In this document: piece by piece, positions 185 through 46,947 of the stretch
Layout of the letters: every line of letters begins with the position of its first letter
Position numbering within the stretch: position 1 is the first letter of the stretch
IMG/VR virus record: IMGVR_UViG_3300046115_000130
Coordinates: 1 to 46,947 of that record
Source of the DNA: a virus
Taxonomy: Duplodnaviria > Caudoviricetes
DNA length: 46,947 nt
Strand: one strand, 5' to 3'
Notes under the pieces: generated by a model
The model's input: the letters and a program-made list of their open reading frames with translations, nothing else
Told to the model about the DNA's origin: nothing
Database searches by the model: none
Program-made: the position numbers and the translations under genes

Positions 185-327
185 ACACACACCTAGCCAT
201 TCATCTTCTTTCGGAGCTTGCCACGATCCTTGCGCGAACGGCGCGCGGGCGCCAGGGATTGCGCGACTTGCTCTCTCACACTACCCACCCAGCTACGCGA
301 GCCATCATTCTGGAAGCGTTGAAATGA
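181..327 (+). CDS. Small hypothetical protein (48 aa, [17 protein letters not shown]...)
   Basis: Below ORF-track cutoff; ATGA overlaps with both neighbours. Confidence 0.65.
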
Positions 328-539
328 AATACATTGTAGTCATCAAGGGACAAGGCTCTCACACCATCGGATCCATCGGATCCATCGGATCCATCGGATC
401 CATCGGATCCATCGGGCCATTCACTGACCGAGAAATAGCGGAGGAAGCCCTTGCCTACGTTGCTGGAACAATCGGCGAGAAGGTAGGGAATTTCAACGTA
501 TCGGGAGCAGTGCTTGAAGAAATGGACGACGAACAATGA
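324..539 (+). CDS. Hypothetical early protein with IGS tripeptide repeat
   Basis: ATG 324 chosen over TTG 168 because of the ATGA overlap; MKYIVVIKG... Confidence 0.7.
   Translation: MKYIVVIKGQGSHTIGSIGSIGSIGSIGSIGPFTDREIAEEALAYVAGTIGEKVGNFNVSGAVLEEMDDEQ
364..415 (+). repeat. 9-bp tandem repeat CCATCGGAT x5 plus 7 bp
   Basis: Directly visible; in frame, encodes IGS repeats. Confidence 0.95.
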
Positions 540-808
540 AAGCCATATTCACGAAGTTCCTGCCAGCAACGAATTACAAAGGCGCGAGGATTGTCGCCCA
601 CGATATGGACGGGAACCGCAAGACCATCGGTTACGAATACGGGGTTTCCTCGGACGATGCACACGACCTTGCGGTAATCGCTCTGTGCGCAAAAATGAAG
701 TGGACCGGGAAACTTGTGCGCGGCGGGTGCAAGCACGGGAATGTCTACTTGTGGCTTGAAGGTAGCAAGCCGTCGCTTGTCATCATGCCAGAAAGAGTCA
801 AGGCATGA
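536..808 (+). CDS. Phage hypothetical protein (TKFLPATNYKGARI motif)
   Basis: ATGA coupling on both sides; motif resembles recurrent phage early hypotheticals. Confidence 0.75.
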   Translation: MKAIFTKFLPATNYKGARIVAHDMDGNRKTIGYEYGVSSDDAHDLAVIALCAKMKWTGKLVRGGCKHGNVYLWLEGSKPSLVIMPERVKA

Positions 809-954
809 GCGCTCCAAATGAATGGGATACGCGCACGTTCACATGCGTTGACTACGCAACGCTTGACGAAGCCAAGAGAGCGCAGGACCGGACAGATTCG
901 GCCGGCGTGATTACTTCACTCTCGATTCAACGTATGGAACTACGGCAATGGTAG
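805..954 (+). CDS. Small hypothetical protein (49 aa, MSAPNEWDTR...)
   Basis: ATGA overlap; read by hand. Confidence 0.55.
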   Translation: MSAPNEWDTRTFTCVDYATLDEAKRAQDRTDSAGVITSLSIQRMELRQW

Positions 955-961
955 TGGAACC

Positions 962-1117
962 ATGAAGAAGCCATCACTGACTCAGCGCATGAAGGACTTA
1001 GGCTTTGACAAGACAGAGCCAATACCTTTCAAGGAAGGCGTGCGTATTGGATGCTCGCAATGTGCAGCGCTCTGCATTAACGGAGTCCCAACACATGAGC
1101 GTGGTTGCCAGAACTAA
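962..1117 (+). CDS. Small Cys/His zinc-binding protein (51 aa, CSQCAALCINGVPTHERGC)
   Basis: Read by hand; GGAACC before ATG; CxxC...HxxGC ligand pattern. Confidence 0.75.
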   Translation: MKKPSLTQRMKDLGFDKTEPIPFKEGVRIGCSQCAALCINGVPTHERGCQN

Positions 1118-1192
1118 CCGCGGAGGGAATTCGGGGAAGATGGCTCGTGGGGCGGACGTTGACAGCTTGTCCACCCGACGCGCGCGCAGAGC

Positions 1193-1648
1193 CTAGGCTA
1201 GCGCCATCAGCAAGCAATCGCGCAGAAAGCCCCGCGTCCTTCGCAGCACCAACGAAACCCACGCGGGGCTTCTATTGAATCGCTTCGCTACCTCTTGCTT
1301 CGCGTAGCCGTTCGCAATCAACCACCACACGGAACGATCGCGCTTGCTCAATCGCGCCAAGGCTACGGCGACCGCTTCCGACCGATCCATTGCCCCCACC
1401 CAGTCCGGGCTATGAACTCCAAGGCCGCTGCGCAACGATACCGGCCGCTTCGCACTCCTTGTATTCCACTTGCGTATCTCGTCGATGATTACATACTCAA
1501 GCGGACGCTTGCTATCGGGATACATGAGCAACTCAGATAGCCCGATAGATACACAATCTTCAAACGTGAATGGACAACTAGGACGCCACACTCTCTTCGC
1601 GCAATAGACCGCAAGGGCGAGCGGGTTGCGACTTTTTCCATCCCTCAC
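1193..1648 (-). CDS. Sigma-70/ECF-like factor (region 4 HTH)
   Basis: C-terminal ALARLSKRDRSVWWLIANGYAKQEVAKRFNRSPAWVSLVLRR fits sigma region 4; IIDEIRK resembles the end of region 2. Confidence 0.75.
   Translation of the reverse strand: MRDGKSRNPLALAVYCAKRVWRPSCPFTFEDCVSIGLSELLMYPDSKRPLEYVIIDEIRKWNTRSAKRPVSLRSGLGVHSPDWVGAMDRSEAVAVALARLSKRDRSVWWLIANGYAKQEVAKRFNRSPAWVSLVLRRTRGFLRDCLLMALA
1227..1275 (+). terminator. Possible terminator hairpin where early transcription meets the convergent sigma-like gene
   Basis: 11-bp inverted repeat AAGCCCCGCGT (1227-1237) / ACGCGGGGCTT (1261-1271); weak T tail. Confidence 0.35.
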
Positions 1649-2142
1649 GGCGTGAACGCGACAACGTTGGTGACGGCCAGCGGGAACGTCCAGTCAACCA
1701 GGATCGGTGAGAACGCTTGCGCGCGCAGTTCGAAACCGCGCAGTTCATCGGGCACGTTCTCCACACGTTTCCAAGGATTGCCGAACGAGCGCAACCCCGT
1801 TTCCAGCATGAGGAACGGGGCGCCGACCAAGAGATTTCCACAAGCCAAGTCGGGCGATGGGATGTTGTCCACCCAGGGGGAAAGGACCAAGATCATCGGT
1901 TCAGTCTGGGGGCGCTGGAGCCCGGCGCCCGGGTCCATCCGCCACCGGAACCACCCGCGGTCTTGCTCGACGACCAGAACCGAGGGTGAGCACGGCACCC
2001 ACTCCTGGGCCACCGCGCGCGCGCTCACCCGCCCGAGCGGGGGCAGCGCTTCCATCAGGACCGCAAGCGAATTGACCGGGGGCCGGGTGCGGCTCTGACA
2101 GCCACCCAGCACCACCACAAAGAGAAAGGCTAGGCGCAACAT
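1645..2142 (-). CDS. Predicted lipoprotein
   Basis: Signal peptide MLRLAFLFVVVLGG-C (lipobox-like); GTGA overlap with the downstream gene. Confidence 0.7.
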   Translation of the reverse strand: MLRLAFLFVVVLGGCQSRTRPPVNSLAVLMEALPPLGRVSARAVAQEWVPCSPSVLVVEQDRGWFRWRMDPGAGLQRPQTEPMILVLSPWVDNIPSPDLACGNLLVGAPFLMLETGLRSFGNPWKRVENVPDELRGFELRAQAFSPILVDWTFPLAVTNVVAFTP

Positions 2143-2203
2143 GCACCTAGCCTATCCCCAGGACCACGCTCCCCCGACGGCGAAGTAGGGGAATCGCGGT
2201 CCG

Positions 2204-2476
2204 TTACAACCTCTTCAGCGCTCGTCGTCCGTCCATCGTCAGATGGTATACAGACCAGGACTTTCGCGTTGTGCTCTTGGAAACCGCTACCAAGTTCTTC
2301 CGAACAAGCGCCGCAATCACTCCGTAGAACGTTGGCCCATAGAATGAGCCATCGACTGCTTGCACCTGGAACCACAAGGAATGAGAATCCGATTCTCCTT
2401 TCATCGTGGCTAGCACCTTCAAGACCAGCGCTTGGCGAACAAGGCGCTTGAATTTGAGATCAAGTATCGCAGTCAT
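2204..2476 (-). CDS. PadR-like winged-helix regulator (90 aa)
   Basis: ATG 2476 overlaps the upstream TGA; LVLKVL...GPTFYGVIAALVRKNLV...VYHLTMDGRRAL matches the PadR pattern. Confidence 0.8.
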   Translation of the reverse strand: MTAILDLKFKRLVRQALVLKVLATMKGESDSHSLWFQVQAVDGSFYGPTFYGVIAALVRKNLVAVSKSTTRKSWSVYHLTMDGRRALKRL

Positions 2477-3627
2477 TGGCATTCCTGCAACATCTCGCCC
2501 GCCCACGATTCGATGTCGAGCCGCTCTCCCGCGTGCGGAAGTTCTTGTGCGGCCCGAGTGATCCCGCACACCACGCCCCAGTAGCTTGAGCGATCGGTTC
2601 CGTGGATCTCCTCGCGATGCTCCGCGTGGGTGTCCGATGCATCGATCAAGTGGACTGGGAAACCCTTGGCCCGCAGTTTCCGCTCCCGCTCGTCGGGCTT
2701 GTTCCGATCGTAGAACGGAGTCTTGCTTGCCATGAGAATCTTGTCGAGTTCTTCTTCGGGCTGGACTGCGGCCCACGTCTCAAGAATTCTCTCGATTTCC
2801 AGGACGCCACGGTCGACGCTCTTCTTTCCGATGTGGCGGAATGCAACGGTTTGAATCTTCTCGCTTGCGCCCCAAATAATGTGGTTGGCACAGATGGAAT
2901 CGAACGCGAAGAACCACGCGAAGCACTTCCGCTCCCCCGTCTCTGAGTTCCCGATGATGGTCCCTCGGTAGAGAAGTTGGTCCCCGCCATCCGGGCCGGG
3001 AAGCGGGGTGGGGTTGACCATAAACGCGAACGTGTTCCGATCGGATGAGTAGATACCACTCCGCTCGCGCACGCCCGCACTCCACTGCCCACCCTGGCCG
3101 GCCCCGCCGTCTGCACTCCCGCGGCCAGCGATGGTCCCGGCCGGCTTGAGAATGTCTCCCACCGTGCGCTTCACGCGGGAGAACAGGTCGGTATCCCACA
3201 CGCGTTCGTAGCGGGGTGTGAGGATCGCCCGGATTTCCGGCTGCCCGCCGAATGGCGGTTCAGTGATGAGAGCGCGCACCATCGGCGCTTCCTTCTCCTC
3301 ACCCGCGCGCCGCGCCTGCCGCTCGCGCAAGACCCGTTGAATCGTGTCCGGATTCAACTGGCGCACGAAGTCTGCAGGCGCAGAGAGGCGGGCGCACAAC
3401 TGCGAGAATGCCCAGGGAGTGAGTGGATATCCGGCGAAGCGGATGGGCGAAGTCTCTCCGGCTTCTCGGATTGTTGCGCCGCACAAGTCAAGTTCCTTCA
3501 CTTCGGAACGATCGCGGCGGCGCTTCGTTTCGGAAATCAGGTTGTCCAAGTCGCAGAACTCTTCGTCCGCGGGACGGTTGAAGTATTCGCGGGAAGCCGC
3601 GTGAGAATCGAACGTGGTGGTTGTCAT
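2473..3627 (-). CDS. DUF932/DUF945-like phage/plasmid protein
   Basis: SREYFNRPADEEF N-terminus; LTPWAFSQLC, IRAILTPRYERVWD, IIGNSETG and ICANHIIWG motifs; start placed at MTTTTFDS (3648 also possible). Confidence 0.75.
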   Translation of the reverse strand: MTTTTFDSHAASREYFNRPADEEFCDLDNLISETKRRRDRSEVKELDLCGATIREAGETSPIRFAGYPLTPWAFSQLCARLSAPADFVRQLNPDTIQRVLRERQARRAGEEKEAPMVRALITEPPFGGQPEIRAILTPRYERVWDTDLFSRVKRTVGDILKPAGTIAGRGSADGGAGQGGQWSAGVRERSGIYSSDRNTFAFMVNPTPLPGPDGGDQLLYRGTIIGNSETGERKCFAWFFAFDSICANHIIWGASEKIQTVAFRHIGKKSVDRGVLEIERILETWAAVQPEEELDKILMASKTPFYDRNKPDERERKLRAKGFPVHLIDASDTHAEHREEIHGTDRSSYWGVVCGITRAAQELPHAGERLDIESWAGEMLQECQ

Positions 3628-3654
3628 GGTTCCGGAAGCATACCACATGATTTC

Positions 3655-3694
3655 AAAAAAGTAGGGCGGACCAAGTTTTTTTGGCCCGCCCTAC
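3655..3694 (-). terminator. Intrinsic terminator on the minus strand upstream of the DUF932-like gene
   Basis: 14-bp stem 3661-3674/3681-3694 (one G-U on the minus strand) immediately followed by U6. Confidence 0.8.
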
Positions 3695-3801
3695 AGCCAC
3701 CCTCTGCTACACACCGCCCGGAAGAAGCGGGGAGCAGCGTTCACTTCTCATCTCCCAGAACGTGCGGACCGTGGTTCCATGCCACCACGGCGGCACAAGA
3801 A
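3655..3801 (-). ncRNA. Putative ~145-nt structured small RNA or attenuator leader
   Basis: Bracketed by a sigma70-like promoter and an intrinsic terminator; internal stems CCGUGGU/ACCACGG, CGUUC/GAACG, CUGCU/AGCAG. Confidence 0.5.
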
Positions 3802-3807
3802 GATGGA

Positions 3808-3836
3808 AGCTTGCAGCCATCACAAGTTTTTGTCAA
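3808..3836 (-). promoter_or_regulatory. Leftward sigma70-like promoter
   Basis: TTGACA (3836-3831), 17 nt, CAAGCT (3813-3808). Confidence 0.6.
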
Positions 3837-3842
3837 GGGGGG

Positions 3843-3871
3843 TTGACGTTTTTTGTGGCTTCTGGTATCCA
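3843..3871 (+). promoter_or_regulatory. Rightward sigma70-like promoter
   Basis: TTGACG, 17 nt, TATCCA with TGn extension; back to back with the leftward -35 across G6. Confidence 0.65.
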
Positions 3872-3950
3872 GGGCTCTCGTTCCGCCACCCACCGACCGC
3901 GGACACCTTCGCCCGTTGCCCGGGTGGTTCACTCAAGTTCTCGGTGCTTC

Positions 3951-4361
3951 ATGCTTCGATTGCTTGCGTTCTTTCTCCTCTGTCTCTGTGCTCGCGCACA
4001 GGAAGCCATTCCTCTCTCCTCGGTCGTCGCTTTCGTGCCCAACGCCGACGGCTACTGGACGCTGGTGACGACCCACCCAGCCCCGCCTTCAACCGCGACC
4101 GCGCCCCTGACTGAGTTCTGGGTGGACACCCAAGCTGGGCTAGTGTGGGTAGGGACCGCGGGATCAGCGATGGCCCTGGCTCAACAGGGAAGCCGGCCGG
4201 CCCCACCGCAGAACATCCTGGAGGCAACCTGGGTGTGTCAGGACGGAACCCAGCAGCGGGTAGTGACCCCTTGCTCTTTGTTCCAGGATCTCTACTCTTG
4301 CGTTTTCCGGCACCGAGAGATGGTGCTGATGATGCAGGGATTCTTTCCTCCCAGGACATGA
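3951..4361 (+). CDS. Predicted secreted protein (136 aa)
   Basis: ATG 3951 gives signal peptide MLRLLAFFLLCLCARA-Q; lies just downstream of the promoter. Confidence 0.7.
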   Translation: MLRLLAFFLLCLCARAQEAIPLSSVVAFVPNADGYWTLVTTHPAPPSTATAPLTEFWVDTQAGLVWVGTAGSAMALAQQGSRPAPPQNILEATWVCQDGTQQRVVTPCSLFQDLYSCVFRHREMVLMMQGFFPPRT

Positions 4362-4366
4362 CATCT

Positions 4367-4470
4367 TGTGGGCGCCCCCGCAAGCGCAGCAACTTCCTGA
4401 CGCTCCGCAGCGTTAGGTCCTCCTCTCCTGTAGTGGTTGCTGTTGCTCCCGGGGCGCCCACATTTTATTT
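4367..4470 (+). promoter_or_regulatory. Structured leader or terminator before the SNF2 gene
   Basis: 12-bp perfect outer stem 4367-4378/4451-4462, nested stems with G-U pairs on the plus strand, then TTTTATTT. Confidence 0.6.
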
Positions 4471-4472
4471 CC

Positions 4473-6176
4473 ATGATTGACTACCTCGTTGCTGAGCATT
4501 GTTTCACTTGCGACGCCCCACGCTTTGCTTCTTCGTTCCTGGAGAAACTTCCAGGAGTCAAGTGGAACAAGGGAATCGCATACATTCCTGCGTCCATCTA
4601 CAACGCGCAAGTTCTGAGCAAGGAAATCGCTCCTGGAGGGTGGAGTGGTCCAGCCAGTTCTATGTGCGATGCGCTCCTGTGCGATGCGCAGAAGATCTAC
4701 ATGGCGGTGCATGGGAATTCACTGCCGCTAAACCACGAAAATCTGCCTTCTCCGTTTCCTCTCTTTGCTCACCAAGTCCAAGCAGTCTTCGGGCTTGCCT
4801 CAATGGAGCATCGTGGCATCCTGGCAGATGAAATGGGCCTTGGGAAAACCCAGGTTGCCATCACCTGTTATCGATGCTGCGTGGAACAACCATTGCTCGT
4901 TGTGTGCCCAGCAAGCATCAAGTGGAAGTGGCAGAATGATCTCAAGGCTAACGGGATTGAGAGCTTCGTTGTCGATAGTGGATCAAGCTATACCGACAAC
5001 GATAGATCGGTTCACACTGCTGCACGCATCGTCAACTACGACCTTCTCTCTCGCCGCCCAGAACTTGTGCTAGATCTAGCCAAGTTCGTGAAGGGCGGCT
5101 TCCTCATTCTGGACGAATCCCACTATGTCAAAGATTCGGGCAGCAAGCGGACGAAAGCGTGCCAGAAATTCAAAGCGAGACACACCATACTCCTCACTGG
5201 GACTCCCATTCGAAATACAATCGTCGATCTATTTTCTCAAGTCTCTCTTGTTCGACCTGGGATATGGAGGAACAGGTGGGAGTTCGAAGACCGATATCAA
5301 ATTCGGAAGGAAATGTTTGTTGGACCTCGCAAATTCCTTAAGCCTGTTGGAACCAGAAACGAAGCCGAACTTGCATCGATCCTTGAAACCATCCAAATCC
5401 GCAGGCTCAAAAAAGACGTGATGAATCTTCCGGACAAGGTTCACTCCGTCATTCCTCTGGACTTCGACAAGAGAAGCAGGGAAGTCTACGAGAAGATGGC
5501 GAAGAAGTGGCTCTACGATTTCTCGGACCTGGGTGGAGAGATGCCGATACTCGACAATCGAGCCAAGACCGCGATGGAAGCCGCGATGCGCCTGGAACAA
5601 ATTTGCCAGGGCTTCCTTTCTCCCGTCCCTCTGACCCTGACCGACAAGCTAGCTCTGTCCGCACCCAGCCCGCACGAAGTCATCGCTGGGGGGTGGATAT
5701 TCCGTGAGAACCCGAAGTTTGCGTGGCTGGAAGAGCTACTTGAGAACCTGGAGAAGAAGAAGGTCGTGGCGTTCTTCCGGTTCAATGCGAGCCTGGAAGC
5801 AGCATGGGGAAGATTCGCGGACCACTCTCCATTGCAGATGATTGGCGATACGCCAGTCTCGGAGCGAGGCAATCGGATCACCAAATTCCAGACGGATGAT
5901 ACTCGCCTGTTCTTGATTCAAGTCAAGATCGCCGAAGGTTTCGACCTGACGGCTGCCCAGGACGTTGTGTTATGGGGGCGTGACTGGAGCCCCGCCGTGA
6001 ATTCGCAAGCAGAGGATCGAGTTCACCGCATTGGCCAGACTGGAACAGTGAATGTCTACCTTCCGATCATCAAAGACTCGATTGAAGAGAAACTTCACGA
6101 GCGTCTTTGTGAGAAGGAAGGAGTGGCGAAGATGGTTCTTGGCGATTTCAGAAAAGCAATTGAGGCGACGGTATGA
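4473..6176 (+). CDS. SNF2-family (SF2) helicase
   Basis: ILADEMGLGKT, VVCPAS, ILDESH, LLTGTP, EGFDLT, QAEDRVHRIGQ motifs. Confidence 0.95.
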   Translation: MIDYLVAEHCFTCDAPRFASSFLEKLPGVKWNKGIAYIPASIYNAQVLSKEIAPGGWSGPASSMCDALLCDAQKIYMAVHGNSLPLNHENLPSPFPLFAHQVQAVFGLASMEHRGILADEMGLGKTQVAITCYRCCVEQPLLVVCPASIKWKWQNDLKANGIESFVVDSGSSYTDNDRSVHTAARIVNYDLLSRRPELVLDLAKFVKGGFLILDESHYVKDSGSKRTKACQKFKARHTILLTGTPIRNTIVDLFSQVSLVRPGIWRNRWEFEDRYQIRKEMFVGPRKFLKPVGTRNEAELASILETIQIRRLKKDVMNLPDKVHSVIPLDFDKRSREVYEKMAKKWLYDFSDLGGEMPILDNRAKTAMEAAMRLEQICQGFLSPVPLTLTDKLALSAPSPHEVIAGGWIFRENPKFAWLEELLENLEKKKVVAFFRFNASLEAAWGRFADHSPLQMIGDTPVSERGNRITKFQTDDTRLFLIQVKIAEGFDLTAAQDVVLWGRDWSPAVNSQAEDRVHRIGQTGTVNVYLPIIKDSIEEKLHERLCEKEGVAKMVLGDFRKAIEATV

Positions 6177-6406
6177 GCGAAACAATAGAAGTGAAGCTGT
6201 TCGAATTGAGGGACAAGGGAACGTTCATCCCGCTTATGTGCGTGAAGGTTCCAGGTGGAAGAATGTTCTGTTTCCCCACTCGAATGCGTCATAGTGGCAT
6301 CTCCTTCAATGCACATCAATTCATAGAGAAGAATTGGAATGAACTTCCAAATGGAGCCTTGATTGATGTGCGACATAATTCTTGGAGAAACAGACTCTCC
6401 ATGTGA
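6173..6406 (+). CDS. Hypothetical phage protein
   Basis: ATGA overlap; ELRDKGTFIP motif. Confidence 0.7.
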   Translation: MSETIEVKLFELRDKGTFIPLMCVKVPGGRMFCFPTRMRHSGISFNAHQFIEKNWNELPNGALIDVRHNSWRNRLSM

Positions 6407-6418
6407 AACGGAGATGTA

Positions 6419-6859
6419 ATGACAACCATTCAACAACTTCGCGAGGAATACATCCGCATTCGCGCACTGAAGGATGGGCTTGCGGATGCAGTCAAGGAGA
6501 ACAACGCGCAGCTTGCGAAAGCGGAGCGAGCCTTGATTGAAGGGATGATGGAAGCGGAGATCACTAGCCAGAAGACGCAATGCGGCGCCACGTTCGCTGT
6601 CACCCCAAGGCTGCATTTCAGCCTGACTCTTGGCAACACCGAGGAAGTTCTCGGTTGGCTACAGCGCGAGGGTTACGAGCCCGCTGATCTAGTCAGGCAA
6701 GAACTCATCCCAACTCGCGTGCGAGAGATCGTCCGCGACATCTACAACAAAAAGGGCAAGATGCATGTCCCGGAATGCCTCAGGCTCGACGACTCCCCGG
6801 GAATCACTGTGACAAATTGGGAAGCAGCGAAAGCGGCTCCCTCAGCGCAGGAAGACTAG
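6419..6859 (+). CDS. Coiled-coil phage protein of the replication module
   Basis: GGAG RBS; N-terminal coiled coil; typical position before SSB. Confidence 0.75.
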   Translation: MTTIQQLREEYIRIRALKDGLADAVKENNAQLAKAERALIEGMMEAEITSQKTQCGATFAVTPRLHFSLTLGNTEEVLGWLQREGYEPADLVRQELIPTRVREIVRDIYNKKGKMHVPECLRLDDSPGITVTNWEAAKAAPSAQED

Positions 6860-6861
6860 CT

Positions 6862-7590
6862 ATGTCACCTGAACAAAAGTTCCCTCTCATGCCAGTTCCG
6901 CAAGACAACGCACTGCAGAAGTCGGAGGCATACGTAGACGATACGATGGTGGAAGCCACCGATCTCTACGTTCCAACGCTTAAAGTCCTGCAGGGAATGT
7001 CGGACGAAGTGAAAGCCGGCAAGGCAATGCCTGGGAAGTTCTGGAATCCATACACGAACAAGGCCCTGGAAAGCCCACAACACGTAGTGATCGTCTTCCA
7101 TCAGAAGACTCGCGCGATGATGGAATCTGGGCCGATGGATGCAGAGAAGCGTGAGCGCTGCATGTCCTTCGATCTCGTGAACGGAACCGTTTACGGTGAC
7201 TGCGAATCGTGCCAATACGCACAATGGAACAAGAAGACTCCACCGCTCTGCAGCATGTCACACGTCTTCATTGCTGCCACCCAGGACGGACCGCTAGCAG
7301 TTCGCTTCCGGAAAGCGAGCGAGAAGGATGCACGCCAGTTTCTCACAAGCAAGCAATCACAGCATGTGAACTGGTGGCAATACACGACGGTCGTGGAGAT
7401 CAAGAAGCGGGTGGGGATCGACGCGACCGGCCGTCCGGCGGAATACTACGCGCCCGCGATCGCGTGGGACAAGACCCTGCCCGTGAGCGAGGAACTGCGC
7501 ACCCAGGCCCGAGCCTTCAACGAGATGCTGCAGGCCGCGCAAGCCGCTGGCAAGCTGAAGCAGGACGCGGTAGAAGAGGGCGAAGCCTAA
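6862..7590 (+). CDS. Putative phage ssDNA-binding protein
   Basis: DLYVPTLKVLQGMSDEV motif, C...CxxC...C cluster, acidic tail (DAVEEGEA), between helicase and primase. Confidence 0.6.
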   Translation: MSPEQKFPLMPVPQDNALQKSEAYVDDTMVEATDLYVPTLKVLQGMSDEVKAGKAMPGKFWNPYTNKALESPQHVVIVFHQKTRAMMESGPMDAEKRERCMSFDLVNGTVYGDCESCQYAQWNKKTPPLCSMSHVFIAATQDGPLAVRFRKASEKDARQFLTSKQSQHVNWWQYTTVVEIKKRVGIDATGRPAEYYAPAIAWDKTLPVSEELRTQARAFNEMLQAAQAAGKLKQDAVEEGEA

Positions 7591-7686
7591 CGCCCCGGCC
7601 AGGGCCACGGCACTGGCTCTGTGGCCCCGAGGAGCCGACAGCGGTGGATCGGGGCGACCTTCCTTGCCCACCGTCCGGAGGAGTCA

Positions 7687-10695: not shown

Positions 10696-10756
10696 CAGCG
10701 GCGGCTGGGTGGTGGATTCTCGTCATCGTTTACGACATCTTCATGCTGGCAATCAA

Positions 10757-12183: not shown

Positions 12184-12214
12184 AGTGGTTCCAGGGTAGC
12201 AGACTTCCTCCACT

Positions 12215-34975: not shown

Positions 34976-34978
34976 GGG

Positions 34979-39431: not shown

Positions 39432-40263
39432 CTCTCCAGTGCGCCCAGATGTCCGTGACTCGGCAGTGCGCAGGATTCACCTTCGCGATCCTGTAATGAG
39501 GGAATCCAGAATAACTCACCCAGCTTTCTGCGATTCCTTCGCAGTAGATACAGAAAACAGGAACTCTAAGTCCTGCAGCAATGTGCGTGATTCCGTTGTC
39601 TACCCCTGCGTAGATCCCTCCATTCTGGCACGCATCATAAATGAATCGAACTGCCTGCTCTAGCGGAAGCCTATGCACCTGAATCGGAATTGGAGGGTGC
39701 GGATCATCTGGGCCGAGAAGAATAACTGCGCGATTCACCCTTCCTTCTTTGCGGAACATCTCATACAGGCGAAACCACGTCGTCCATGGAGCGACCTTGT
39801 TCCCTGAAAAGCCATCGCCCTTCTTGTCATTGCTAGCAGAGTTCGGAGAAATGACCATGGTGTCAGGTTCCGGAACCAGCCATCCAATTCCACTATCCGG
39901 AACCTTGACTTTAGGAAGAATGTCGTGTGGAGCAATCGATACTCCAACCATGTCAGCATACGCCTGAGATATGTGACAATTCTTCTTGTGTCCAATCTCG
40001 AATGCTTCGTTGCACGACATGACGTAATGCGTCACGTTCGAACCAAAATGTGTTCCCTTGCGAAGACTTTCCCAATCTGGAGTTGCTAAAACTTCATCAC
40101 ACACGTCACCACTAAGTCCAAGCATATAGCTCATCATCGGCGACTCTTGCATCACCCACGTGACGTGCTTTCCTTGATTCCTACGCTTAAACTCACGGAT
40201 GGCTGGAGACTGTGTGATTGTGTCTCCAATAAGATTCACGCTACAGAACGCAACTCGATTCAT
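39415..40263 (-). CDS. GT9 (heptosyltransferase-like) glycosyltransferase
   Basis: IGDTITQSPAIREFK; YAGVDNGITHIAAGLRVPVFCIY. Confidence 0.85.
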   Translation of the reverse strand: MNRVAFCSVNLIGDTITQSPAIREFKRRNQGKHVTWVMQESPMMSYMLGLSGDVCDEVLATPDWESLRKGTHFGSNVTHYVMSCNEAFEIGHKKNCHISQAYADMVGVSIAPHDILPKVKVPDSGIGWLVPEPDTMVISPNSASNDKKGDGFSGNKVAPWTTWFRLYEMFRKEGRVNRAVILLGPDDPHPPIPIQVHRLPLEQAVRFIYDACQNGGIYAGVDNGITHIAAGLRVPVFCIYCEGIAESWVSYSGFPHYRIAKVNPAHCRVTDIWAHWRGGLRD

Positions 40264-40484
40264 CTTGGAAGATCCTCAACATCCATTCCAAGATTCTCTG
40301 CATGGAGCTTCACTGCCGCACGCTTCTCCTTTTCTCCGACTTCTCTGATGTAGTCTCGCTGGCAAGCCGACGAACAGAACAGAACGCAAGAACCATCAGC
40401 TAGCCGAGGAAGAACCTTCGCTTGCCCGCGAGTGATCCTTGTAGCCTTGTGGCATCGCAAGCACGGAACGCTGGCAACGTTCAT
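40260..40484 (-). CDS. Small zinc-finger protein (TRASH/MYM-like)
   Basis: CLRC...FCSSAC. Confidence 0.7.
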   Translation of the reverse strand: MNVASVPCLRCHKATRITRGQAKVLPRLADGSCVLFCSSACQRDYIREVGEKEKRAAVKLHAENLGMDVEDLPR

Positions 40485-40485
40485 G

Positions 40486-40866
40486 TCAGTAGGGCAGACG
40501 CGGCTTGCGCGGCTGGGTGGGATTCACTGGAACGGGGCCGGGCGCTGGATTGCTCGGCCTGGGCATCTCGCGCGCTGCCTCGCTGCTACGTTGCGGCCGG
40601 ATCCTGGTGGCGTCGTGGCCCTGGGTGGCTTCGATCTCCTCCGCGGTCCTGGCGGGAAAGTTGTAGTTGAGCGGCCCGGCGACCCTGGTTCCGGTGGCTG
40701 CTTCAATGTGCGCGGTGAGAAGCTTGTCGATTCCGAACATGCACGCGCACCAGCGATTCTCGTCAGGGATGATCTGTCGGATGAGATCCTGAATCTGGAC
40801 AGTTATCCGCCTCGCTTCCAGATGGATCCCTGATTCGGAGAATTGTTCCCAACGTCTTGCGACCAT
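40486..40866 (-). CDS. Hypothetical protein
   Basis: Overlaps the TerL end; operon context. Confidence 0.6.
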   Translation of the reverse strand: MVARRWEQFSESGIHLEARRITVQIQDLIRQIIPDENRWCACMFGIDKLLTAHIEAATGTRVAGPLNYNFPARTAEEIEATQGHDATRIRPQRSSEAAREMPRPSNPAPGPVPVNPTQPRKPRLPY

Positions 40867-42428
40867 ATGTCATCCTTTTCTCGCGTGTGATGTTTAACCA
40901 TCTCGCGCCAATCGACTTCGCGAGTGGAATTATACTGTCCGTCAACGACGGAAGGTTTCCATTGCCTAGCACCAATGATACGAGCAGGGTTGAATCCGAC
41001 AGGCGGCGATGGAACATAGAAGCCACCTTCCTCACGATGCTTGTCGAGATCCGAGAGTGCGTCAGGAATGTCGTCATGTTGTGAAAACGGGAATTCGCAG
41101 AACTCGCGAACCATGGTGTCCCAAAGGTCAGGATCGAACAGTCGGATCTTGTCCGACCAATACAACCTTCCACCGTCAGCGAATCGTGGTTGTAGCGCCT
41201 GGATTCTCTGAACCTTGGTTTCCTGTGATCTTCCGCCAATCTCGATGATGACTGGCCTGATCCCGAACTGCTCAGCCAGCCTACGAAGAGAAGCCTTCCC
41301 CCATTCGGAGTGGCTTGTCTTCTCCATCGTCATTCCTTTAACGAAGTATGGCTGCCATTTTTGGTAAAGGAGGAGAGCTTGCGTGATTGCTTCGTCAGGC
41401 AACCAACGGCCAATCCTAACCTCACGGATGAAAGCGTCACGATGAGGATTAAGAGAAACAACAAACAAAGCCGTTCTGTCGTTTCGCTTGTTCTCACCAG
41501 AAGCAAAATCAGTAAGAATGCAAGTGTAACAATTTCTAGGAATCTCGTGATCGCCGATAACATGGAACTGATCCTGCCTAAAGAGGGCGGTTTCGTCGGA
41601 CTGGGGGGCGTTTAGGTAGAACGCGCTCCACAACTTTACTCCAAGTAGCGCTTTCTGCGCTTGAACGTATTCCTCAGACAATCTCTGTGGGAAAAGTAGA
41701 GTTCCATCCACGTTCTTGTAACTGTGGACGATGCAATGAAACTGCGCGCGGATTGCCTTGTCGGTCAGAATCTTCCCGTGCTGATCGTGGAAGTGGTGCC
41801 GTGTGCCTGGCTGCAGCCACATGGCGCCAGGATCCAACTGAGCCAGTGTCTCGCCGACCCAGTTCGCTGTGCCCTGGATTGCTTCCGGAGTCTTGGTGTT
41901 TTCCTGCGAAACGAAGTCATCCCCGATCACTAGATCATAGTGCATTCCAGTTCGCACTTGATCCGTCCCGGTCGCGGTTACCGTCGGTTCCTTGAGTTGC
42001 GCCGTTCTTTGCGCGCTCGTGAACTCATGATCGCTGAATCCAACTTGCTTGTCATGTCTTCCGAAGACTTCGATGTGCTTCGCGCTTTCAAGAAGTTGGC
42101 GAGACAGGCGAGTGAACGTGACAGCCTGCTTGAAAGTTTCCGAGGCAACAAGAATTCGAATGTTCGGATTCCTGACGATGAGCCAGCACGAAAGACCTAC
42201 GTTAAACACATGGCTTTTGAAAGATCCACGTGGAAGCAGTAGTAGAACCTTCCTTTTGCCACGGAGAAGGTTATTGAGAACTTCCTTAGCAACTCTTCCG
42301 TGAAGCTCGTCTGTCGCATCAGGCGCAGCCCCGAAGTCCCGAACGTAGTCAAGGAATCCATCTTCGGTGAGGTAATACTTCCTCTCAAGATCAAGCCGGT
42401 GTTGTCTCAGTTGTTCCGGCGTCGCCAC
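40803..42428 (-). CDS. terL: Terminase large subunit
   Basis: LPRGSFKS Walker A, HYDLVIGDD Walker B, GTRHH, nuclease TDFAS and HDDIPDALS. Confidence 0.95.
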   Translation of the reverse strand: MATPEQLRQHRLDLERKYYLTEDGFLDYVRDFGAAPDATDELHGRVAKEVLNNLLRGKRKVLLLLPRGSFKSHVFNVGLSCWLIVRNPNIRILVASETFKQAVTFTRLSRQLLESAKHIEVFGRHDKQVGFSDHEFTSAQRTAQLKEPTVTATGTDQVRTGMHYDLVIGDDFVSQENTKTPEAIQGTANWVGETLAQLDPGAMWLQPGTRHHFHDQHGKILTDKAIRAQFHCIVHSYKNVDGTLLFPQRLSEEYVQAQKALLGVKLWSAFYLNAPQSDETALFRQDQFHVIGDHEIPRNCYTCILTDFASGENKRNDRTALFVVSLNPHRDAFIREVRIGRWLPDEAITQALLLYQKWQPYFVKGMTMEKTSHSEWGKASLRRLAEQFGIRPVIIEIGGRSQETKVQRIQALQPRFADGGRLYWSDKIRLFDPDLWDTMVREFCEFPFSQHDDIPDALSDLDKHREEGGFYVPSPPVGFNPARIIGARQWKPSVVDGQYNSTREVDWREMVKHHTREKDDIWSQDVGNNSPNQGSIWKRGG

Positions 42429-43074
42429 TTTCCACCCTGCCCTTCAGCTTCTTTTGTAGCTCGACAATCCGATGCGCTTCCTTCTCTACCTCTTCCTGTG
42501 CTCCTTCTGTGAGCGAATGTTCCACCTTGACTGGTGCGCGATACACAACGCCAAGCTGCTGCATTGTGTTGATGTATTTGAACAGGATGTCCGCAGCCAC
42601 CTTCGGTCCACCCTTCTCCTCCTGAAGTGCTCGATGGTAGAGATCTTCCACGCGCAGGGTGAGCATTCCGACGAAGGATTCAAACCGAACCTGGAGAACG
42701 TCTTCCCCGATGAGTTGTGCGTATCGGTTGTAGACTCGGATGACTTCTTCCACGGGAAGCCAGAATCTACTCGCAACGCTGTGCGCCGCTGATCCCTCGT
42801 GGATCAAATGCAGAATCACCGCATGTTGCTGCGCGGGAATCAGATTCCGGAAGAATTCTGGCTCGTCGCCCCCTTCCTTGATCTGGGAAAGGATTGCGCG
42901 CCCAACCTCTTCGCGAGGCAGGCGCATGATCTCCAGGGGGCTCTTGGTCTTGCCAAGGTAGCCACCGTCCAGGAGCGCGACTGCTAGCTCTTCAAGGCTT
43001 TTGGCCCCGATCTGCGTCGCAGCCTTCTGCAGTCGGGACTTGAGCCCTGGGTCCAGAATCAGATTGTTCGCCAT
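42391..43074 (-). CDS. Probable terminase small subunit
   Basis: Immediately upstream of TerL; HTH-like segment; C-terminal KVEHS. Confidence 0.55.
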   Translation of the reverse strand: MANNLILDPGLKSRLQKAATQIGAKSLEELAVALLDGGYLGKTKSPLEIMRLPREEVGRAILSQIKEGGDEPEFFRNLIPAQQHAVILHLIHEGSAAHSVASRFWLPVEEVIRVYNRYAQLIGEDVLQVRFESFVGMLTLRVEDLYHRALQEEKGGPKVAADILFKYINTMQQLGVVYRAPVKVEHSLTEGAQEEVEKEAHRIVELQKKLKGRVESGDAGTTETTPA

Positions 43075-43213
43075 GTGGATCGGTTCTCTGGAAGAGCGCG
43101 TTTCCCTTCATGTCGTAGCACGTTGTCACCTTTCCAAACATTGGATTTTCCACAACTTGGATGATGACTTGTTCCACGCTGGGTGGGTGGATGATGGCTT
43201 GCCGTTGCGTCAT
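42992..43213 (-). CDS. Hypothetical protein
   Basis: ATGA overlap with the upstream gene. Confidence 0.5.
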   Translation of the reverse strand: MTQRQAIIHPPSVEQVIIQVVENPMFGKVTTCYDMKGNALFQRTDPHGEQSDSGPRAQVPTAEGCDADRGQKP

Positions 43214-43554
43214 GGCTGATCCACGATCTTCTGTCGCTTCATATGATCCTCGTATTGCTTCTCGGCGAAGATTGCAGCCTCGCTGTCTACAGGATCTTTG
43301 GTAAGCTCTGCGATCCTACGAAGAGCAATCGAGCTAACTTTCAACTGAATCCCCATGTTTGAATTGACAAGCCAGTGTATTGAATCCACCGTCTTGATTG
43401 ATCTTACTGTTCCAATCAATTGAATCAATTGCGCGCAGATGAGGACTGCGAAACCGATGACCTGGGTGGCGTTGCTTCCGGAGAAAGCTACAGCAACAAC
43501 GGTTGCTACGGCTAGAAAGCAGACTGCCAGGATCGAGATGGTTTGCTGGCTCAT
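43210..43554 (-). CDS. Two-TM membrane protein, holin-like
   Basis: Two hydrophobic segments then IHWLVNSNM; ATG 43554 overlaps the upstream TGA. Confidence 0.6.
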   Translation of the reverse strand: MSQQTISILAVCFLAVATVVAVAFSGSNATQVIGFAVLICAQLIQLIGTVRSIKTVDSIHWLVNSNMGIQLKVSSIALRRIAELTKDPVDSEAAIFAEKQYEDHMKRQKIVDQP

Positions 43555-44744: not shown

Positions 44745-45330
44745 GCAAACACGAGCGTATCGTATGGCGTGTGCATGATGATGATGATGATTCTTGTTTG
44801 TATGAGAGATAGATAGAGAGAGGATAGGGATGAAATTAAGAGAAGAAGGTGGGGGGGGTGCGTCTGGGAATGCTCGCTCCAATGTGAGTGGGCTATGAGG
44901 ACCCTTCGGGTCCCTCGCGCGACGCCCGCCCGCGTCTCGCGCGCGTGTTCGGCCGCATCTTGTGTCCACCACCCAGCTTGCACGTGGCCAGCGCACCATA
45001 ATTGAGGTTATCAGAACCAAACAACGCGCGTGCCAGATGCACGAGTTAGAGCGGACGTGAGCAATTGGCACGGAAATGGCAGGGGGGATAGCTCTAAAAA
45101 GACCGGGCGGCGAAAACCCTATGTTTTTACACCCTACAAAAATCAAAAACCTACGTAAGGGTTTCCCGTGAACTTTTACCCCTTTTATCCGATGCTACCA
45201 TATACGGTTATTCCATATACTTTCAAAAAGTAGTCATAACAACTATTTGATTTCCAAACAGAAGCTTCTACACTGGCACGCTTTTTGTCACCATATCCCA
45301 TCATCTCATTACCATCGCCACATCACAAAA
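44745..45330. other. Large non-coding divergence region; candidate physical genome end / control region
   Basis: Transcription diverges here; (GAT)n, GA-rich and G8 tracts, hairpin GGACCC-TTC-GGGTCC, AT-rich right half; octamer polarity switches here. Confidence 0.55.
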
Positions 45331-45332
45331 AC

Positions 45333-45361
45333 TTGCATCTTGGCCTCAAGTCTCGTATGTT
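45333..45361 (+). promoter_or_regulatory. Sigma70-like early promoter
   Basis: TTGCAT, 17 nt, TATGTT with an A-tract upstream; ~70 nt before the first early gene. Confidence 0.6.
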
Positions 45362-45433
45362 TTTGGACGATACACCTTGCGTTGAAGCGAACAGCAAAGG
45401 ACAGAACCCACCCAGCAAACCGAAAGGGAAGCA

Positions 45434-45667
45434 ATGGACAACACGGAAGACATTAGAAGGAACATGATCGAGAACGGAAAACCGTTGGAAGACTTTGCGA
45501 AGGACAAGAAGCGCAAGTGGACAACGGATGAACTGACCCAGGAATTCGAAGTCCTTGGATTCGCGGCACCTTTCGTCGTGGTCCGGCGCAAGTCGGATGG
45601 AGTGAAGGGAAGCATGGAGTTCATGCATTCGCCACGGGTTTACTTCGATTTCCGGGCCGATAGGTGA
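45434..45667 (+). CDS. Hypothetical protein (WTTDEL...FEVLGFAAPFVVVRRKSDGVKGS motif)
   Basis: Clean ORF with a purine-rich RBS; motif resembles a recurrent hypothetical family (from memory). Confidence 0.85.
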   Translation: MDNTEDIRRNMIENGKPLEDFAKDKKRKWTTDELTQEFEVLGFAAPFVVVRRKSDGVKGSMEFMHSPRVYFDFRADR

Positions 45668-45670
45668 GCC

Positions 45671-45916
45671 ATGTATCATCTCTCACTCACTGAGGCAGAC
45701 TTCGAAGCTATCTGCTTCGTTGGCTATCGCTACGGATGGTCCAACGTTCTCTACAAGCATGGAGTAGGGGAACACGACATTCCGGAGCACGAAGCATGGG
45801 CAATCAAGGAAGCTTGCGATTCCGATACGGAAGGCGGACATTGCTACTTCCCGATGCTGGACATGCGCTCAGAGCTTGCCAGCAAGCTCTTCAAGTTCCT
45901 GGATTCCATCGTGTGA
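45671..45916 (+). CDS. Hypothetical early protein
   Basis: AGGTGA SD; tight packing. Confidence 0.8.
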   Translation: MYHLSLTEADFEAICFVGYRYGWSNVLYKHGVGEHDIPEHEAWAIKEACDSDTEGGHCYFPMLDMRSELASKLFKFLDSIV

Positions 45917-45919
45917 CAC

Positions 45920-46135
45920 ATGACCAACCCAGACATACTCCCGCGCTTCAAGACAGAGAACGAAGCGCGTGATTACGCAAAGCGTGAGAGCGCGAGAAGT
46001 GAAGAACTGTTCATCATCAAGTCACACTGCCCTGAGTATCCAGATGCTCCTTACTGTGTGGACAATGATGCATTCTGCCGCAACTGGGAGTGGATCATTG
46101 CCAGATACCAGAACGGAAGAGAGATCAAGAATTAA
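45920..46135 (+). CDS. Hypothetical early protein
   Basis: Tight packing. Confidence 0.75.
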   Translation: MTNPDILPRFKTENEARDYAKRESARSEELFIIKSHCPEYPDAPYCVDNDAFCRNWEWIIARYQNGREIKN

Positions 46136-46167
46136 AGTTTCAAGGGAAGAATGCCGATAGGTGAAGT

Positions 46168-46401
46168 ATGAACTACAAATTCAAGATCTACACTGGGCCA
46201 ACAACGGTTAAAGAAGTAGCGGAAGCGCTCCGTAGCTCTGGAGTCTACGTGTATCTGGAAGGAACGGAACACGTCTACATCGCTTCGCCGTGTGAGGAAA
46301 TTTACGATACTAACGTTTACGTTCAAACCCGATTGCTTGAGACGCACGGAAAGAGATTCGGAATCCTACATAGTGACTTCTCATTCTTGGGTGAAGCATG
46401 A
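46168..46401 (+). CDS. Hypothetical early protein
   Basis: AGGTGA SD; ATGA overlap with the next gene. Confidence 0.75.
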
Positions 46402-46947
46402 ACATCATCACTAGAGAAGAACTAAAAGAAAAGGAAGCCTGCATCGAAGGGCTTGCGCTTTTCGATAAGCTAGCAATCGACGGTAAGCTTGAACTGTCAA
46501 CCACCCAGAACGCGGAGCACGTTCTCCGAAACGGTGGGCATGTCTACTGGGAGTGGTTGCGTGAAAATTTCGCGACGCCGTCGTTGTACCACGCCAACCT
46601 GCGCGGCGCCAACCTGAGCGGCGCCGACCTGCGCGGCGCCGACCTGAGCGACGCCAACCTGCGCGACGCCGACCTGAGCGGCGCCAACCTGCGCGACGCC
46701 AACCTGCGCGACGCCGACCTGAGCGACGCCGACCTGCGCGACGCCGACCTGCACGGCGCCAACCTGCACGGCGCCGACCTGAGCGACGCCGACCTGCGCG
46801 ACGCCGACCTGAGCGGCGCCAACCTGCACGGCGCCGACCTGCACGGCGCCGACCTGAGCGACGCCGACCTGCGCGACGCCGACCTGCGCGACGCCGACCT
46901 GCACGGCGCCAACCTGCACGGCGCCAACCTGCACGGCGCCAACCTGA
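46398..46947 (+). CDS. Pentapeptide-repeat protein, 5' part (runs off the window end and probably continues at position 2)
   Basis: Not in ORF track. ATG 46398 overlaps the previous [22 protein letters not shown]...YH followed by A(N/D)L(R/S/H)(G/D) repeats from 46593 with no in-frame stop. Confidence 0.9.
46593..46947 (+). repeat. 15-bp minisatellite GCC-RAC-CTG-(CGC/AGC/CAC)-GRC, about 23-24 units
   Basis: Directly visible tandem array; 46745-46811 is identical to 1-67. Confidence 0.95.

What the first reader, a model, noticed from the sequence alone, without database searches (positions are those of the whole stretch)
285..46508. Genome-wide, polarised Chi-like octamer CTGGGTGG: a candidate phage DNA end-protection code
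Seen: 43 exact copies (26 on +, 17 on -) plus about 14 more CTGGGTG 7-mers. A base-composition estimate (GC roughly 55-56%, estimated by eye) predicts only about 2 octamers on both strands. The motif occurs in all three reading frames of one gene (DHP at 14018, PPS at 15607, PTQ at 15714) and in non-coding DNA (44969, 45408), so it is not a codon-pair effect. Orientation is ordered: 8 consecutive copies from 44969 across the junction to 4073 are CCACCCAG, 9 consecutive copies from 25922 to 43462 are CTGGGTGG, and the middle is mixed. Copies at 1396, 1869 and 2102 keep the polarity although their genes run on the opposite strand. Established: E. coli Chi is GCTGGTGG and stops RecBCD only when approached from its 3' side; the common flanked form here, GCTGGGTGG, differs by one inserted G. 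Inference: if the virion DNA ends near 44.8-44.95 kb, every end-proximal octamer points its 3' side at the nearer end, the geometry needed to attenuate a RecBCD/AddAB-type nuclease. That would reveal the Chi site of an uncharacterised host. Alternatives: a priming signal for the phage primase-MCM (T7 primase uses 5'-GGGTC to make pppACCC; here GGGTG, spaced about 1 kb on average), or binding sites for an injected or packaging protein.
Basis: partly seen in the sequence, partly recalled or inferred. Interest (0 to 1): 0.92.

Follow-up and report, generated by a model that had tools for sequence, protein, structure and literature searches.

The report
End-pointing octamer beside phage dif site
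An uncultured sediment phage carries the eight-letter word CTGGGTGG about twenty times more often than chance, with nearby copies pointing from both sides at its likely genome ends, where a sequence shaped like a bacterial chromosome-unlinking (dif) site lies; the word is most likely a host DNA-repair signal of the Chi kind, but the host and the protein that reads it are still unknown.

Summary
Confirmed: 43 copies (26 +, 17 -) against about 2 expected; 33 in genes against 3.1 after synonymous shuffling. The window is an SU10-like podophage genome; I found no recombinase of its own. Contig depth and an independent contig end mark a probable 214-bp terminal repeat at 44896-45109, where the word's orientation flips: 14 of 16 copies within 10 kb point at it. 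A relative at 70-75% DNA identity keeps the word and the flip, with most copies at other places. A distant relative uses a different word (CAACGGG) with the same geometry. New here: the repeat holds a 28-bp Xer/dif-type site whose left arm matches real chromosomal dif sites, and both word-bearing lineages have one. Best reading (0.45): a host Chi-like signal, as in phages LLS, P1 and MD8, with dif resolving the joined genomes. Main rival (0.27): an atypical KOPS steering host FtsK-XerCD to the phage's own dif. No host was found; in the chromosomes I could test the word is neither strongly enriched nor the KOPS.

The parts
25922..43469 (+). Nine consecutive CTGGGTGG copies on the late arm, all with the 3' side towards the right genome end and the XerD-type arm of the dif-like site
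44969..46508 (-). Three copies on the minus strand (44969 inside the probable repeat, 45408, 46501), the start of an eight-copy run
285..4080 (-). Five further minus-strand copies (285, 1396, 1869, 2102, 4073); three lie in minus-strand genes and keep the positional polarity
4118..25724 (.). Middle of the genome: 26 copies of mixed orientation (17 +, 9 -)
44896..45109 (.). Probable 214-bp direct terminal repeat (inferred)
   Evidence: separate contig with depth 35.9 against 10.2 and 11.9 on its flanks in run X2; raised bin in X3; X1 and X8 uninformative; contig L009 begins at 45109
44991..45018 (-). Xer/dif-type site, 11+6+11: GGTTCTGATAA CCTCAA TTATGGTGCGC read on the minus strand; XerD-type arm degenerate in its outer half and facing the late arm
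   Evidence: same left arm in the chromosomal site of G418
44896..44917 (+). Short inverted repeat starting at the left edge of the repeat, conserved in L211; partly in G161 and L218
   Evidence: folding z-scores not significant (-0.35 to -1.77)
40803..42428 (-). Terminase large subunit
   Evidence: phrog_38 E 3e-66
29505..34591 (-). SU10-type major capsid (29505-30554) and portal (32240-34591) genes; region poor in the word
   Evidence: PF17236, PF23899
4473..6176 (+). SNF2-type helicase
   Evidence: PF00176, phrog_62
6419..6859 (+). Pam3 gp33-like coiled-coil protein, function open
   Evidence: PF23984; model pLDDT 89, only generic coiled-coil matches, Z at most 6.0
6862..7590 (+). Pam3 gp34-like protein, predicted OB-fold single-stranded-DNA-binding protein
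   Evidence: model pLDDT 90; best match phiC31 RDF chain 9teh_I, Z 8.6, rmsd 4.7, 160 aligned; then SSB/RPA/gp32 folds
7687..10695 (+). DnaG-type primase fused to an MCM-like helicase
   Evidence: phrog_47, PF00493, TIGR01391, all weak
11439..11939 (+). RecU-like Holliday junction resolvase
   Evidence: PF03838 E 1e-8

Best explanation
CTGGGTGG is a sharply defined, roughly 20-fold enriched word whose end-proximal copies face the phage's probable genome ends, and it is most likely the Chi-type signal of the unknown host's RecBCD/AddAB enzyme, which would slow that enzyme as it enters from either end and would hand the DNA to host RecA. Shown: enrichment, frame independence, positional polarity, and retention with turnover of individual copies in a relative. 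On this reading word and dif site are two parts of one reliance on host recombination.
For: Geometry matches Chi: the G-rich strand's 3' side faces the end in 14 of 16 copies, 12 of 15 in L211 and 15 of 17 for CAACGGG in G161. The word shares its last five letters with E. coli Chi GCTGGTGG, which is absent from the window. Density (1 per 1.1 kb) is of the order seen in LLS (1 per 1.86 kb), P1 (1 per 1.9 kb) and MD8 (32 sites), where Chi is the commonest octamer and is end-biased (PMC12315714 sections 6, 15, 18). No RecA, annealase or exonuclease family was hit among the proteins scanned (58 ORFs), and the gp34-like protein folds like an SSB. Published Chi words differ widely between hosts, which fits two words in two terL clades. 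Recognition of about 20% per site (PMC5443536) would favour dense arrays. Copies recur in non-homologous DNA of L211; only 3 of its 15 align to a window copy, plus one by protein homology.
Against: No host genome was found. In 151 + 61 + 121 genomes of two phyla (sets overlap) the word reached at most about 7 times its reversed control, and in six of the densest genomes it was 0.7-2.9 times the order-2 expectation. Density is lowest on the right arm (0.47 per kb against 1.15 in the middle), unlike the end clustering in LLS and P1. Almost all facing copies lie inside the terminal repeat's inner edge, the first 1.6 kb from the right end, so they could not shield a 214-bp repeat or drive P1-type circularisation. 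One L211 copy about 80 bp outside the homologous repeat edge points the wrong way. The G161 word has a strong pyrimidine-rich 3' flank, longer than known Chi cores. The gp33-like protein could be an end-binding inhibitor; this was not excluded. Twenty related records with the same replication genes carry 0-6 copies, so lack of a recombinase does not by itself predict the word.
Confidence: 0.45

Rival explanations
1. The word is an atypical KOPS: host FtsK loads on it and runs towards the dif-type site in each terminal repeat, where it switches on XerCD to join the two repeats into a circle or to cut multimers into monomers. Copies in the middle could point either way because both directions end at a dif copy.
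For: The words converge on a 28-bp site of dif architecture. Its left arm is identical to the chromosomal site of G418. Eight chosen chromosomal hits of the same pattern show GC skew falling across them (8 of 8; sign change in 5) and GGGNAGGG pointing at them 67 to 21. Both word-bearing lineages have a site with a 6-bp centre. Of 26 related records covering the junction, 6 score 20 or more of 22 as Xer sites and 3 of these carry a word; none of the other 20 showed one. The two lineages are separated by fully supported branches in a quick terL tree. Facing copies lie interior to the site, and the longest run is on the XerD side. Centres differ in all four 6-bp sites, which fits self-by-self recombination rather than integration. 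KOPS words can differ between families (PMC3384302 abstract).
Against: Where I could test chromosomes with such dif arms, the KOPS is the canonical GGGNAGGG: 114 to 32 around the dif of complete genome G041, against 41 to 29 for CTGGGTGG, and 13 to 7 in the eight other genomes. L218 keeps a 6-bp-centre site but has 1 CAACGGG in 8 kb where G161 has 6. L018, L023 and G169 have Xer-type sites without a word. In the window and L211 the copy nearest the site on the XerD side points away from it. KOPS are not enriched in virulent coliphages (PMC3603311 passage). The scoring letter sets were chosen after seeing the phage sites.
Confidence: 0.27
2. The word is read by a phage protein, such as the primase-MCM, the SNF2 translocase or an injected protein, and marks the lagging-strand template or loading direction of forks that run from the interior to the ends.
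For: The same geometry is expected for priming sites. The word turns over fast (absent from L214 at 55% terL identity; CAACGGG largely absent from L216-L221 at about 80% DNA identity to G161), which suits a phage-encoded reader. The G161 consensus spans 12-13 bases. G161 has the closest primase of the relatives searched (35%). No bacterial genome reached shows the word as a chromosomal signal.
Against: Twenty related records, 17 of them holding the same primase-MCM, show no comparably enriched non-palindromic word except G161. Gaps of 5.6 kb (window) and 9.1 kb (G161) are long for obligatory priming. GGGTG outside CTGGGTG occurs 76 times against about 65 expected (my subtraction). Orientation is mixed over 21 kb. 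Known primase sites are 3-5 bases (recalled).
Confidence: 0.2
3. The word is spread by a mutational or methylation-linked drive, or marks sites of a host methyltransferase or defence system, and the polarity is a by-product of divergent transcription from the ends.
For: Near the ends most genes point away from the junction, so sense-strand preference would mimic convergence; 23 of 33 coding copies read CCACCCAG on the sense strand. The genome shows strong restriction-type avoidance, for example GTAC 4 against 182 expected.
Against: Seven of 8 copies in opposite-strand early genes keep the positional polarity. No other frequent 8-mer outside the pentapeptide repeats is as biased around the ends. 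Phages usually lose, not gain, restriction sites (recalled).
Confidence: 0.08

Closest known systems
Chi-rich phages LLS, P1 and MD8 (Zheng et al. 2025, PMC12315714; Subramaniam and Smith preprint 10.1101/2021.07.08.451572)
   Same: One octamer is the commonest dispersed word of the phage genome, at 1 per 1-2 kb, oriented towards a DNA end, in a phage without a recognisable recombination module.
   Different: The word is not a published Chi as far as my searches went. The phage is an SU10-like podophage, not lambdoid or P1-like. Both ends are faced. The probable terminal repeat is about 214 bp, against 5-10 kb in P1. Copies are not concentrated at the right end. A dif-type site lies at the convergence point.
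XerCD/dif with FtsK and KOPS (PMC5357621, PMC3025954, PMC3384302)
   Same: A 28-bp 11+6+11 site with ATAA/TTAT inner arms, and a G-rich polar word converging on it from both sides.
   Different: It lies in a 47-kb phage genome. The word is not GGGNAGGG (2+/5- in the window). Density is about ten times the 1 per 13 kb quoted for E. coli. The middle is unpolarised.
IMEX (CTXphi, VGJphi, TLCphi, GGI; PMC5357621, PMC6744903)
   Same: A phage-borne dif-like site with a conserved XerC arm and a degenerate XerD arm, and no integrase hit in the genome.
   Different: Tailed dsDNA phage with the site in a probable terminal repeat. The centre varies between close relatives and differs from the chromosomal centres seen, which argues against integration. 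No XafT-like factor was identified. No integrated copy was seen.
T7-type primase recognition sites (recalled)
   Same: Polar short word in a phage with a primase-helicase fusion.
   Different: Eight informative bases, 20-fold enrichment, long gaps, and absent from relatives with the same primase.

Membership tests
Chi site of RecBCD/AddAB | Short asymmetric word over-represented beyond codon usage | tested here: met
   33 copies against 3.1 (max 10) in 500 synonymous shuffles
Chi site of RecBCD/AddAB | 3' side faces the DNA end where the enzyme enters | tested here: met
   14 of 16 within 10 kb of the inferred ends; the ends themselves are inferred from contigs
Chi site of RecBCD/AddAB | Enriched and leading-strand skewed in the host chromosome | tested here: inconclusive
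   Host unknown; only weak skew in non-host genomes
Chi site of RecBCD/AddAB | Orientation-dependent change of nuclease activity and recombination hotspot activity | not testable with these tools
   needs enzyme or cells
Chi-rich, Rec-module-less phage (LLS class) | No annealase, exonuclease or RecBCD inhibitor | tested here: inconclusive
   No such family hit; gp34-like is SSB-like; gp33-like and many small ORFs are unassigned
Xer/dif recombination site | 28 bp, two 11-bp arms with ATAA/TTAT inner ends around a 6-bp centre | tested here: met
   44991-45018; arms conserved and centre variable in four phages; 0 such hits in 150 Markov genomes, with letter sets chosen post hoc
Xer/dif recombination site | Arms match real chromosomal dif arms | tested here: met
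   Left arm identical to G418's site; a related pattern hits 44 of 61 genomes of that order, 41 of them once, control 0. The right arm matches only in its inner part in the window, fully in G161
Xer/dif recombination site | Bound and recombined by XerC/XerD | not testable with these tools
   needs the host enzymes
KOPS (FtsK-orienting polar sequence) | Polar word converging on a dif site | tested here: met
   14 to 3 (window, counting the copy in the repeat), 12 to 3 (L211), 15 to 2 (G161) within 10 kb
KOPS (FtsK-orienting polar sequence) | Same word converges on the host chromosome's dif | tested here: inconclusive
   Not so in nine genomes of one phylum, where GGGNAGGG does; the real host is unknown
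KOPS (FtsK-orienting polar sequence) | Bound by FtsK gamma | not testable with these tools
   needs the host protein
IMEX | Found integrated at the host dif | tested here: inconclusive
   No integrated copy among 2 genome hits; window and relatives look free; variable centres argue against it
Phage primase recognition site | 3-5-base core enriched evenly on the lagging template | tested here: not met
   GGGTG not enriched apart from the 7-mer; gaps of 5.6-9.1 kb; the definition is recalled

The most novel reading that the evidence does not exclude
A tailed phage with short terminal repeats hijacks the host's chromosome-unlinking machine: it carries a dif site in each repeat and has written the host's FtsK signposts (an unknown KOPS, CTGGGTGG; CAACGGG in a second lineage) through its genome, so that FtsK-XerCD circularises or monomerises the phage DNA without any phage recombinase.
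Probability: 0.27. Interest if true: 0.92.

Novelty: new variant of a known kind. Interest (0 to 1): 0.77.

Why it matters
If the word is Chi, a phage genome has revealed the recombination signal of an uncultured host, and a second lineage gives a second candidate; both are short and can be tested as soon as the host clade is named. Whichever protein reads the word, a dif-type site in the terminal region of tailed phages, present in several branches of this family and gained or lost between close relatives, suggests a way for short-repeat linear genomes to circularise or resolve multimers with host XerCD. My searches did not find this described. If the word is a KOPS, it would be a phage steering FtsK to its own site.

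Tried and rejected
Nucleotide search of 25 kb of the window against annotated phages: no match; protein matches are 22-30% identical and give no host. A scan of IMG/VR for pairs of the word returned 120 of about 430 stretches; none approached this density. Two MAGs holding distant terL relatives (G001, G002) are not enriched: 371 against 272 and 101 against 125 control. Two viral scans for the dif pattern (119 of about 290 stretches; 12 of 12) found no other phage with the word. The dif-like site had no plasmid match and only chance phage matches. Gene 43652-44077 first looked linked to the dif site but is family-wide by HMM. The gp33-like model matched only generic coiled coils, so it is neither shown nor excluded as a Gam-like protein. 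Three same-strand spacings of 107-109 bp were noticed, not tested. The tRNA call at 21-110 lies in pentapeptide repeats and is taken as spurious. Runs X1 and X8 cross the junction in one contig and say nothing on ends. Literature searches for the words themselves gave nothing relevant; the library lacks most subscription papers. The terL tree is the quick version; the careful search did not finish.


Full report
THE OBSERVATION. The window holds 43 exact copies of CTGGGTGG (26 +, 17 -) and 57 of CTGGGTG, against 1.95 expected from an order-2 and 3.8 from an order-3 Markov model; the reversed word occurs once. In 45 called genes there are 33 copies; 500 synonymous-codon shuffles give a mean of 3.1 and at most 10, and all six frame/strand classes are used. 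The 24 single-base neighbours occur 0-10 times each; CAGGGTGG (10) is the commonest but is not polarised like the main word. E. coli Chi is absent. The run of 9 '+' followed by 8 '-' across the junction has P = 0.003 by permutation (post hoc), while the total number of orientation changes is ordinary (P = 0.25).

THE GENOME. It is a phage with SU10-type portal, capsid and adaptor, a terminase, a glycosyltransferase cluster, an SNF2 helicase, a primase-MCM fusion and a RecU-like resolvase. No polymerase, integrase, RecA, annealase or exonuclease family was hit; many small ORFs have no family. The gp34-like protein gives a confident model (pLDDT 90, 73 sequences) whose best match is the phiC31 RDF chain (Z 8.6, rmsd 4.7, 160 aligned), followed by SSB, RPA and gp32 folds; I read it as an SSB. 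The gp33-like protein stays unassigned. Early and late genes diverge from a non-coding region at about 44.1-45.4 kb. Loose ends in runs X2 and X8 continue from 46790 into sequence like that near position 166, so the assembly closes through the pentapeptide-repeat gene. Near-identical DNA is in 24 listed runs from sediment and soil.

THE ENDS. I laid 4 of the 24 runs, all kept as contigs. In X2 a separate 214-bp contig, 44896-45109, has depth 35.9, against 10.2 to its left and 11.9 to its right. In X3 the same bin is 11.5 against 3.5 and 7.6. X1 (possibly the source) and X8 cross the region in one contig and cannot show it. Contig L009, 99.3% identical, begins exactly at 45109; L212 begins at 44911. 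A short inverted repeat starting at 44896 is conserved in L211 while the bases before it are not. I infer a short direct terminal repeat; contigs are indirect evidence and raw reads are needed. With these ends, 14 of 16 copies within 10 kb face the nearer end (P = 0.002), and no frequent 8-mer outside the pentapeptide repeats is as biased. Density is 1.45 per kb in the first 6.2 kb, 1.15 in the middle and 0.47 in the last 19 kb.

RELATIVES. L211 (terL 87% identical, 69-75% DNA identity in the main aligned blocks) spans the junction and has 15 copies in 13.7 kb against 0.5 expected; 12 point at the junction site and 3 away. Three align to window copies, one more is homologous by protein (a Leu-Gly-Gly lipobox-like stretch), two window copies are lost, and most lie in unalignable DNA. 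In opposite-strand early genes 3 of 3 (window) and 4 of 5 (L211) copies keep the positional polarity, so it does not simply follow transcription. L214 (terL 55%) has none in 10.8 kb. Seventy-eight terL loci at 24-46% have 0-3 copies, and 20 longer related records with the same gene order have 0-6. One of these 20, G161, has its own word: CAACGGG, 37 copies against 8.1, 35 in long ORFs against a shuffle mean of 9.0 and maximum of 18. It converges on the homologous junction, 14 of 16 within 9 kb, and has a pyrimidine-rich 3' flank that the window's word lacks. A quick terL tree (51 rows) puts window/L211 and G161 in clades separated by branches with 100% SH-aLRT support.

A DIF-TYPE SITE AT THE CONVERGENCE POINT. 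Inside the probable repeat, 44991-45018 reads GGTTCTGATAA CCTCAA TTATGGTGCGC on the minus strand. L211, G161 and L218 have the same architecture with conserved arms and four different centres. The pattern TTCTGATAA-N6-TTATG hits 17 of 401 genomes of G001's phylum (control 5). I chose 8 of the 17 that looked dif-like or lay on long contigs: GC skew falls across all 8 (changing sign in 5), and GGGNAGGG points at them 67 to 21. G418's site has the same left arm as the phage, and a related pattern hits 44 of 61 genomes of its order, control 0. Rows of Kono et al.'s table show similar arms in Solibacter, Syntrophobacter and Rhodobacter, and that paper notes degenerate XerD arms in phage dif-like sites. 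That the phylum is Acidobacteriota is my recalled reading of three 16S genes. Among 34 distinct related records, 26 have at least 800 bases upstream of the first late gene; 6 of these score 20 or more of 22 as Xer sites (window lineage, L211, G161, L218 with 6-bp centres; L023 with 7; L018 with 8), one scores 18 (G169), and the rest score 17 or less. The letter sets were chosen after seeing the phage sites. L018 has the site and its near-twin by terL, L039, does not. Three of the 6 carry a word and none of the other 20 showed one; by hand this is P of about 0.01 by record and 0.03 by lineage, and some records were tested only over their fetched locus. Against a tight link, L218 keeps the site but has 1 CAACGGG where G161 has 6.

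HOST. Not found. The word reached at most about 7 times its reversed control in 151, 61 and 121 genomes, and 0.7-2.9 times expectation in samples of six of the densest. In complete genome G041, 15 sampled 20-kb segments on either side of its dif give GGGNAGGG 114 toward and 32 away, but CTGGGTGG 41 and 29. Only two phyla could be reached. The phage nearly lacks GTAC (4 against 182) and lacks CTCGAG, GACGTC, GAGCTC, GCATGC and GTGCAC, unlike most relatives, which points to a different, restriction-rich host.

HOW IT MOST LIKELY WORKS. Chi and KOPS predict the same polarity, so geometry cannot separate them. I favour Chi (0.45). The word resembles E. coli Chi at its 3' end. Its density matches Chi-rich phages. 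Chi words vary between hosts, whereas every chromosome I tested with such dif arms used GGGNAGGG. Xer sites occur in this family without a word. In this reading the word attenuates host RecBCD/AddAB at the ends and at internal cuts and feeds RecA, and the dif site circularises the genome or resolves multimers. Its weak points are the sparse right arm and that facing copies lie inside the repeat's inner edge and cannot shield it. The KOPS reading (0.27) explains that interior placing, the long run on the XerD side and the free middle, but needs a host with an unusual KOPS. A phage-encoded reader (0.2) fits the fast turnover and the long G161 consensus. Shown steps: enrichment, polarity, conservation with turnover, dif architecture. 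Inferred steps: ends, reader, use of the dif site.

WHAT IS KNOWN. Chi-rich phages are published (PMC12315714: abstract and sections 6, 15, 18; preprint 10.1101/2021.07.08.451572: passages). For Chi context and efficiency I saw PMC5041463 (abstract) and PMC5443536 (passages). For Xer, KOPS and IMEX I saw PMC5357621 (passages), PMC3025954 (passages and searched rows of supplement 2), PMC3384302 (abstract), PMC3603311 (passages) and PMC6744903 (abstract and start of text). Searches for the words and for a tailed phage with a dif site in terminal repeats or with KOPS found nothing of the kind; I saw those results as listings only, and subscription papers are mostly absent. Earlier scan notes describe polar words in other phages and dif/KOPS in bacteria; none concerns this genome, and I did not check them.

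VERDICT. A real, selected, end-facing word: a new variant of the Chi-rich phage pattern, with an unexpected Xer/dif-type site at the point it faces. Interest 0.77.

Noticed in passing
L018 about 1 kb and L023 about 0.5 kb upstream of the first late gene; G169 near 30,060: Xer-type sites with 8-, 7- and 6-bp centres at the terminal junction in other branches of the family, without an enriched word; present in L018 but not in its near-twin L039.
   Followed up: partly
G161 (L283-L285), whole genome: A second polar word, CAACGGG with a pyrimidine-rich tail, 37 copies, converging on a canonical dif-type site at 17220-17247.
   Followed up: yes
window 44775-44860; L211 6445-6385; G161 17500-17570: Low-complexity tracts of GAT, GATA or ATA repeats just outside the left edge of the probable repeat in several relatives; function unexplained.
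   Followed up: no
whole window: Near-complete avoidance of GTAC and of CTCGAG, GACGTC, GAGCTC, GCATGC, GTGCAC, while many relatives are rich in CGAGCTC or CTCGAG. Could help to name the host from methylomes.
   Followed up: partly
window 34979-40263: Cluster of glycosyltransferase and methyltransferase genes between terminase and portal, variable between strains; perhaps virion glycosylation.
   Followed up: no
window 1193-1648 and 1645-2142: Sigma-70-like HTH gene (weak, below cut-off) and a predicted lipoprotein gene on the minus strand in the early arm.
   Followed up: partly
window 46398-46947 and 1-180: Pentapeptide-repeat gene at which the assembly breaks; repeat number differs between runs, so the true genome length is uncertain.
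   Followed up: partly
window 15498, 15607, 15714 and 40513, 40621: Three same-strand spacings of 107-109 bp between copies; the last pair is conserved in L211 with 111 bp.
   Followed up: no
window 12756-18674: A 1972-residue virion-module protein with no family hit, 21-36% identical pieces in relatives.
   Followed up: no
G041 C1 1,650,069: dif site of a complete chromosome with canonical GGGNAGGG converging on it.
   Followed up: yes
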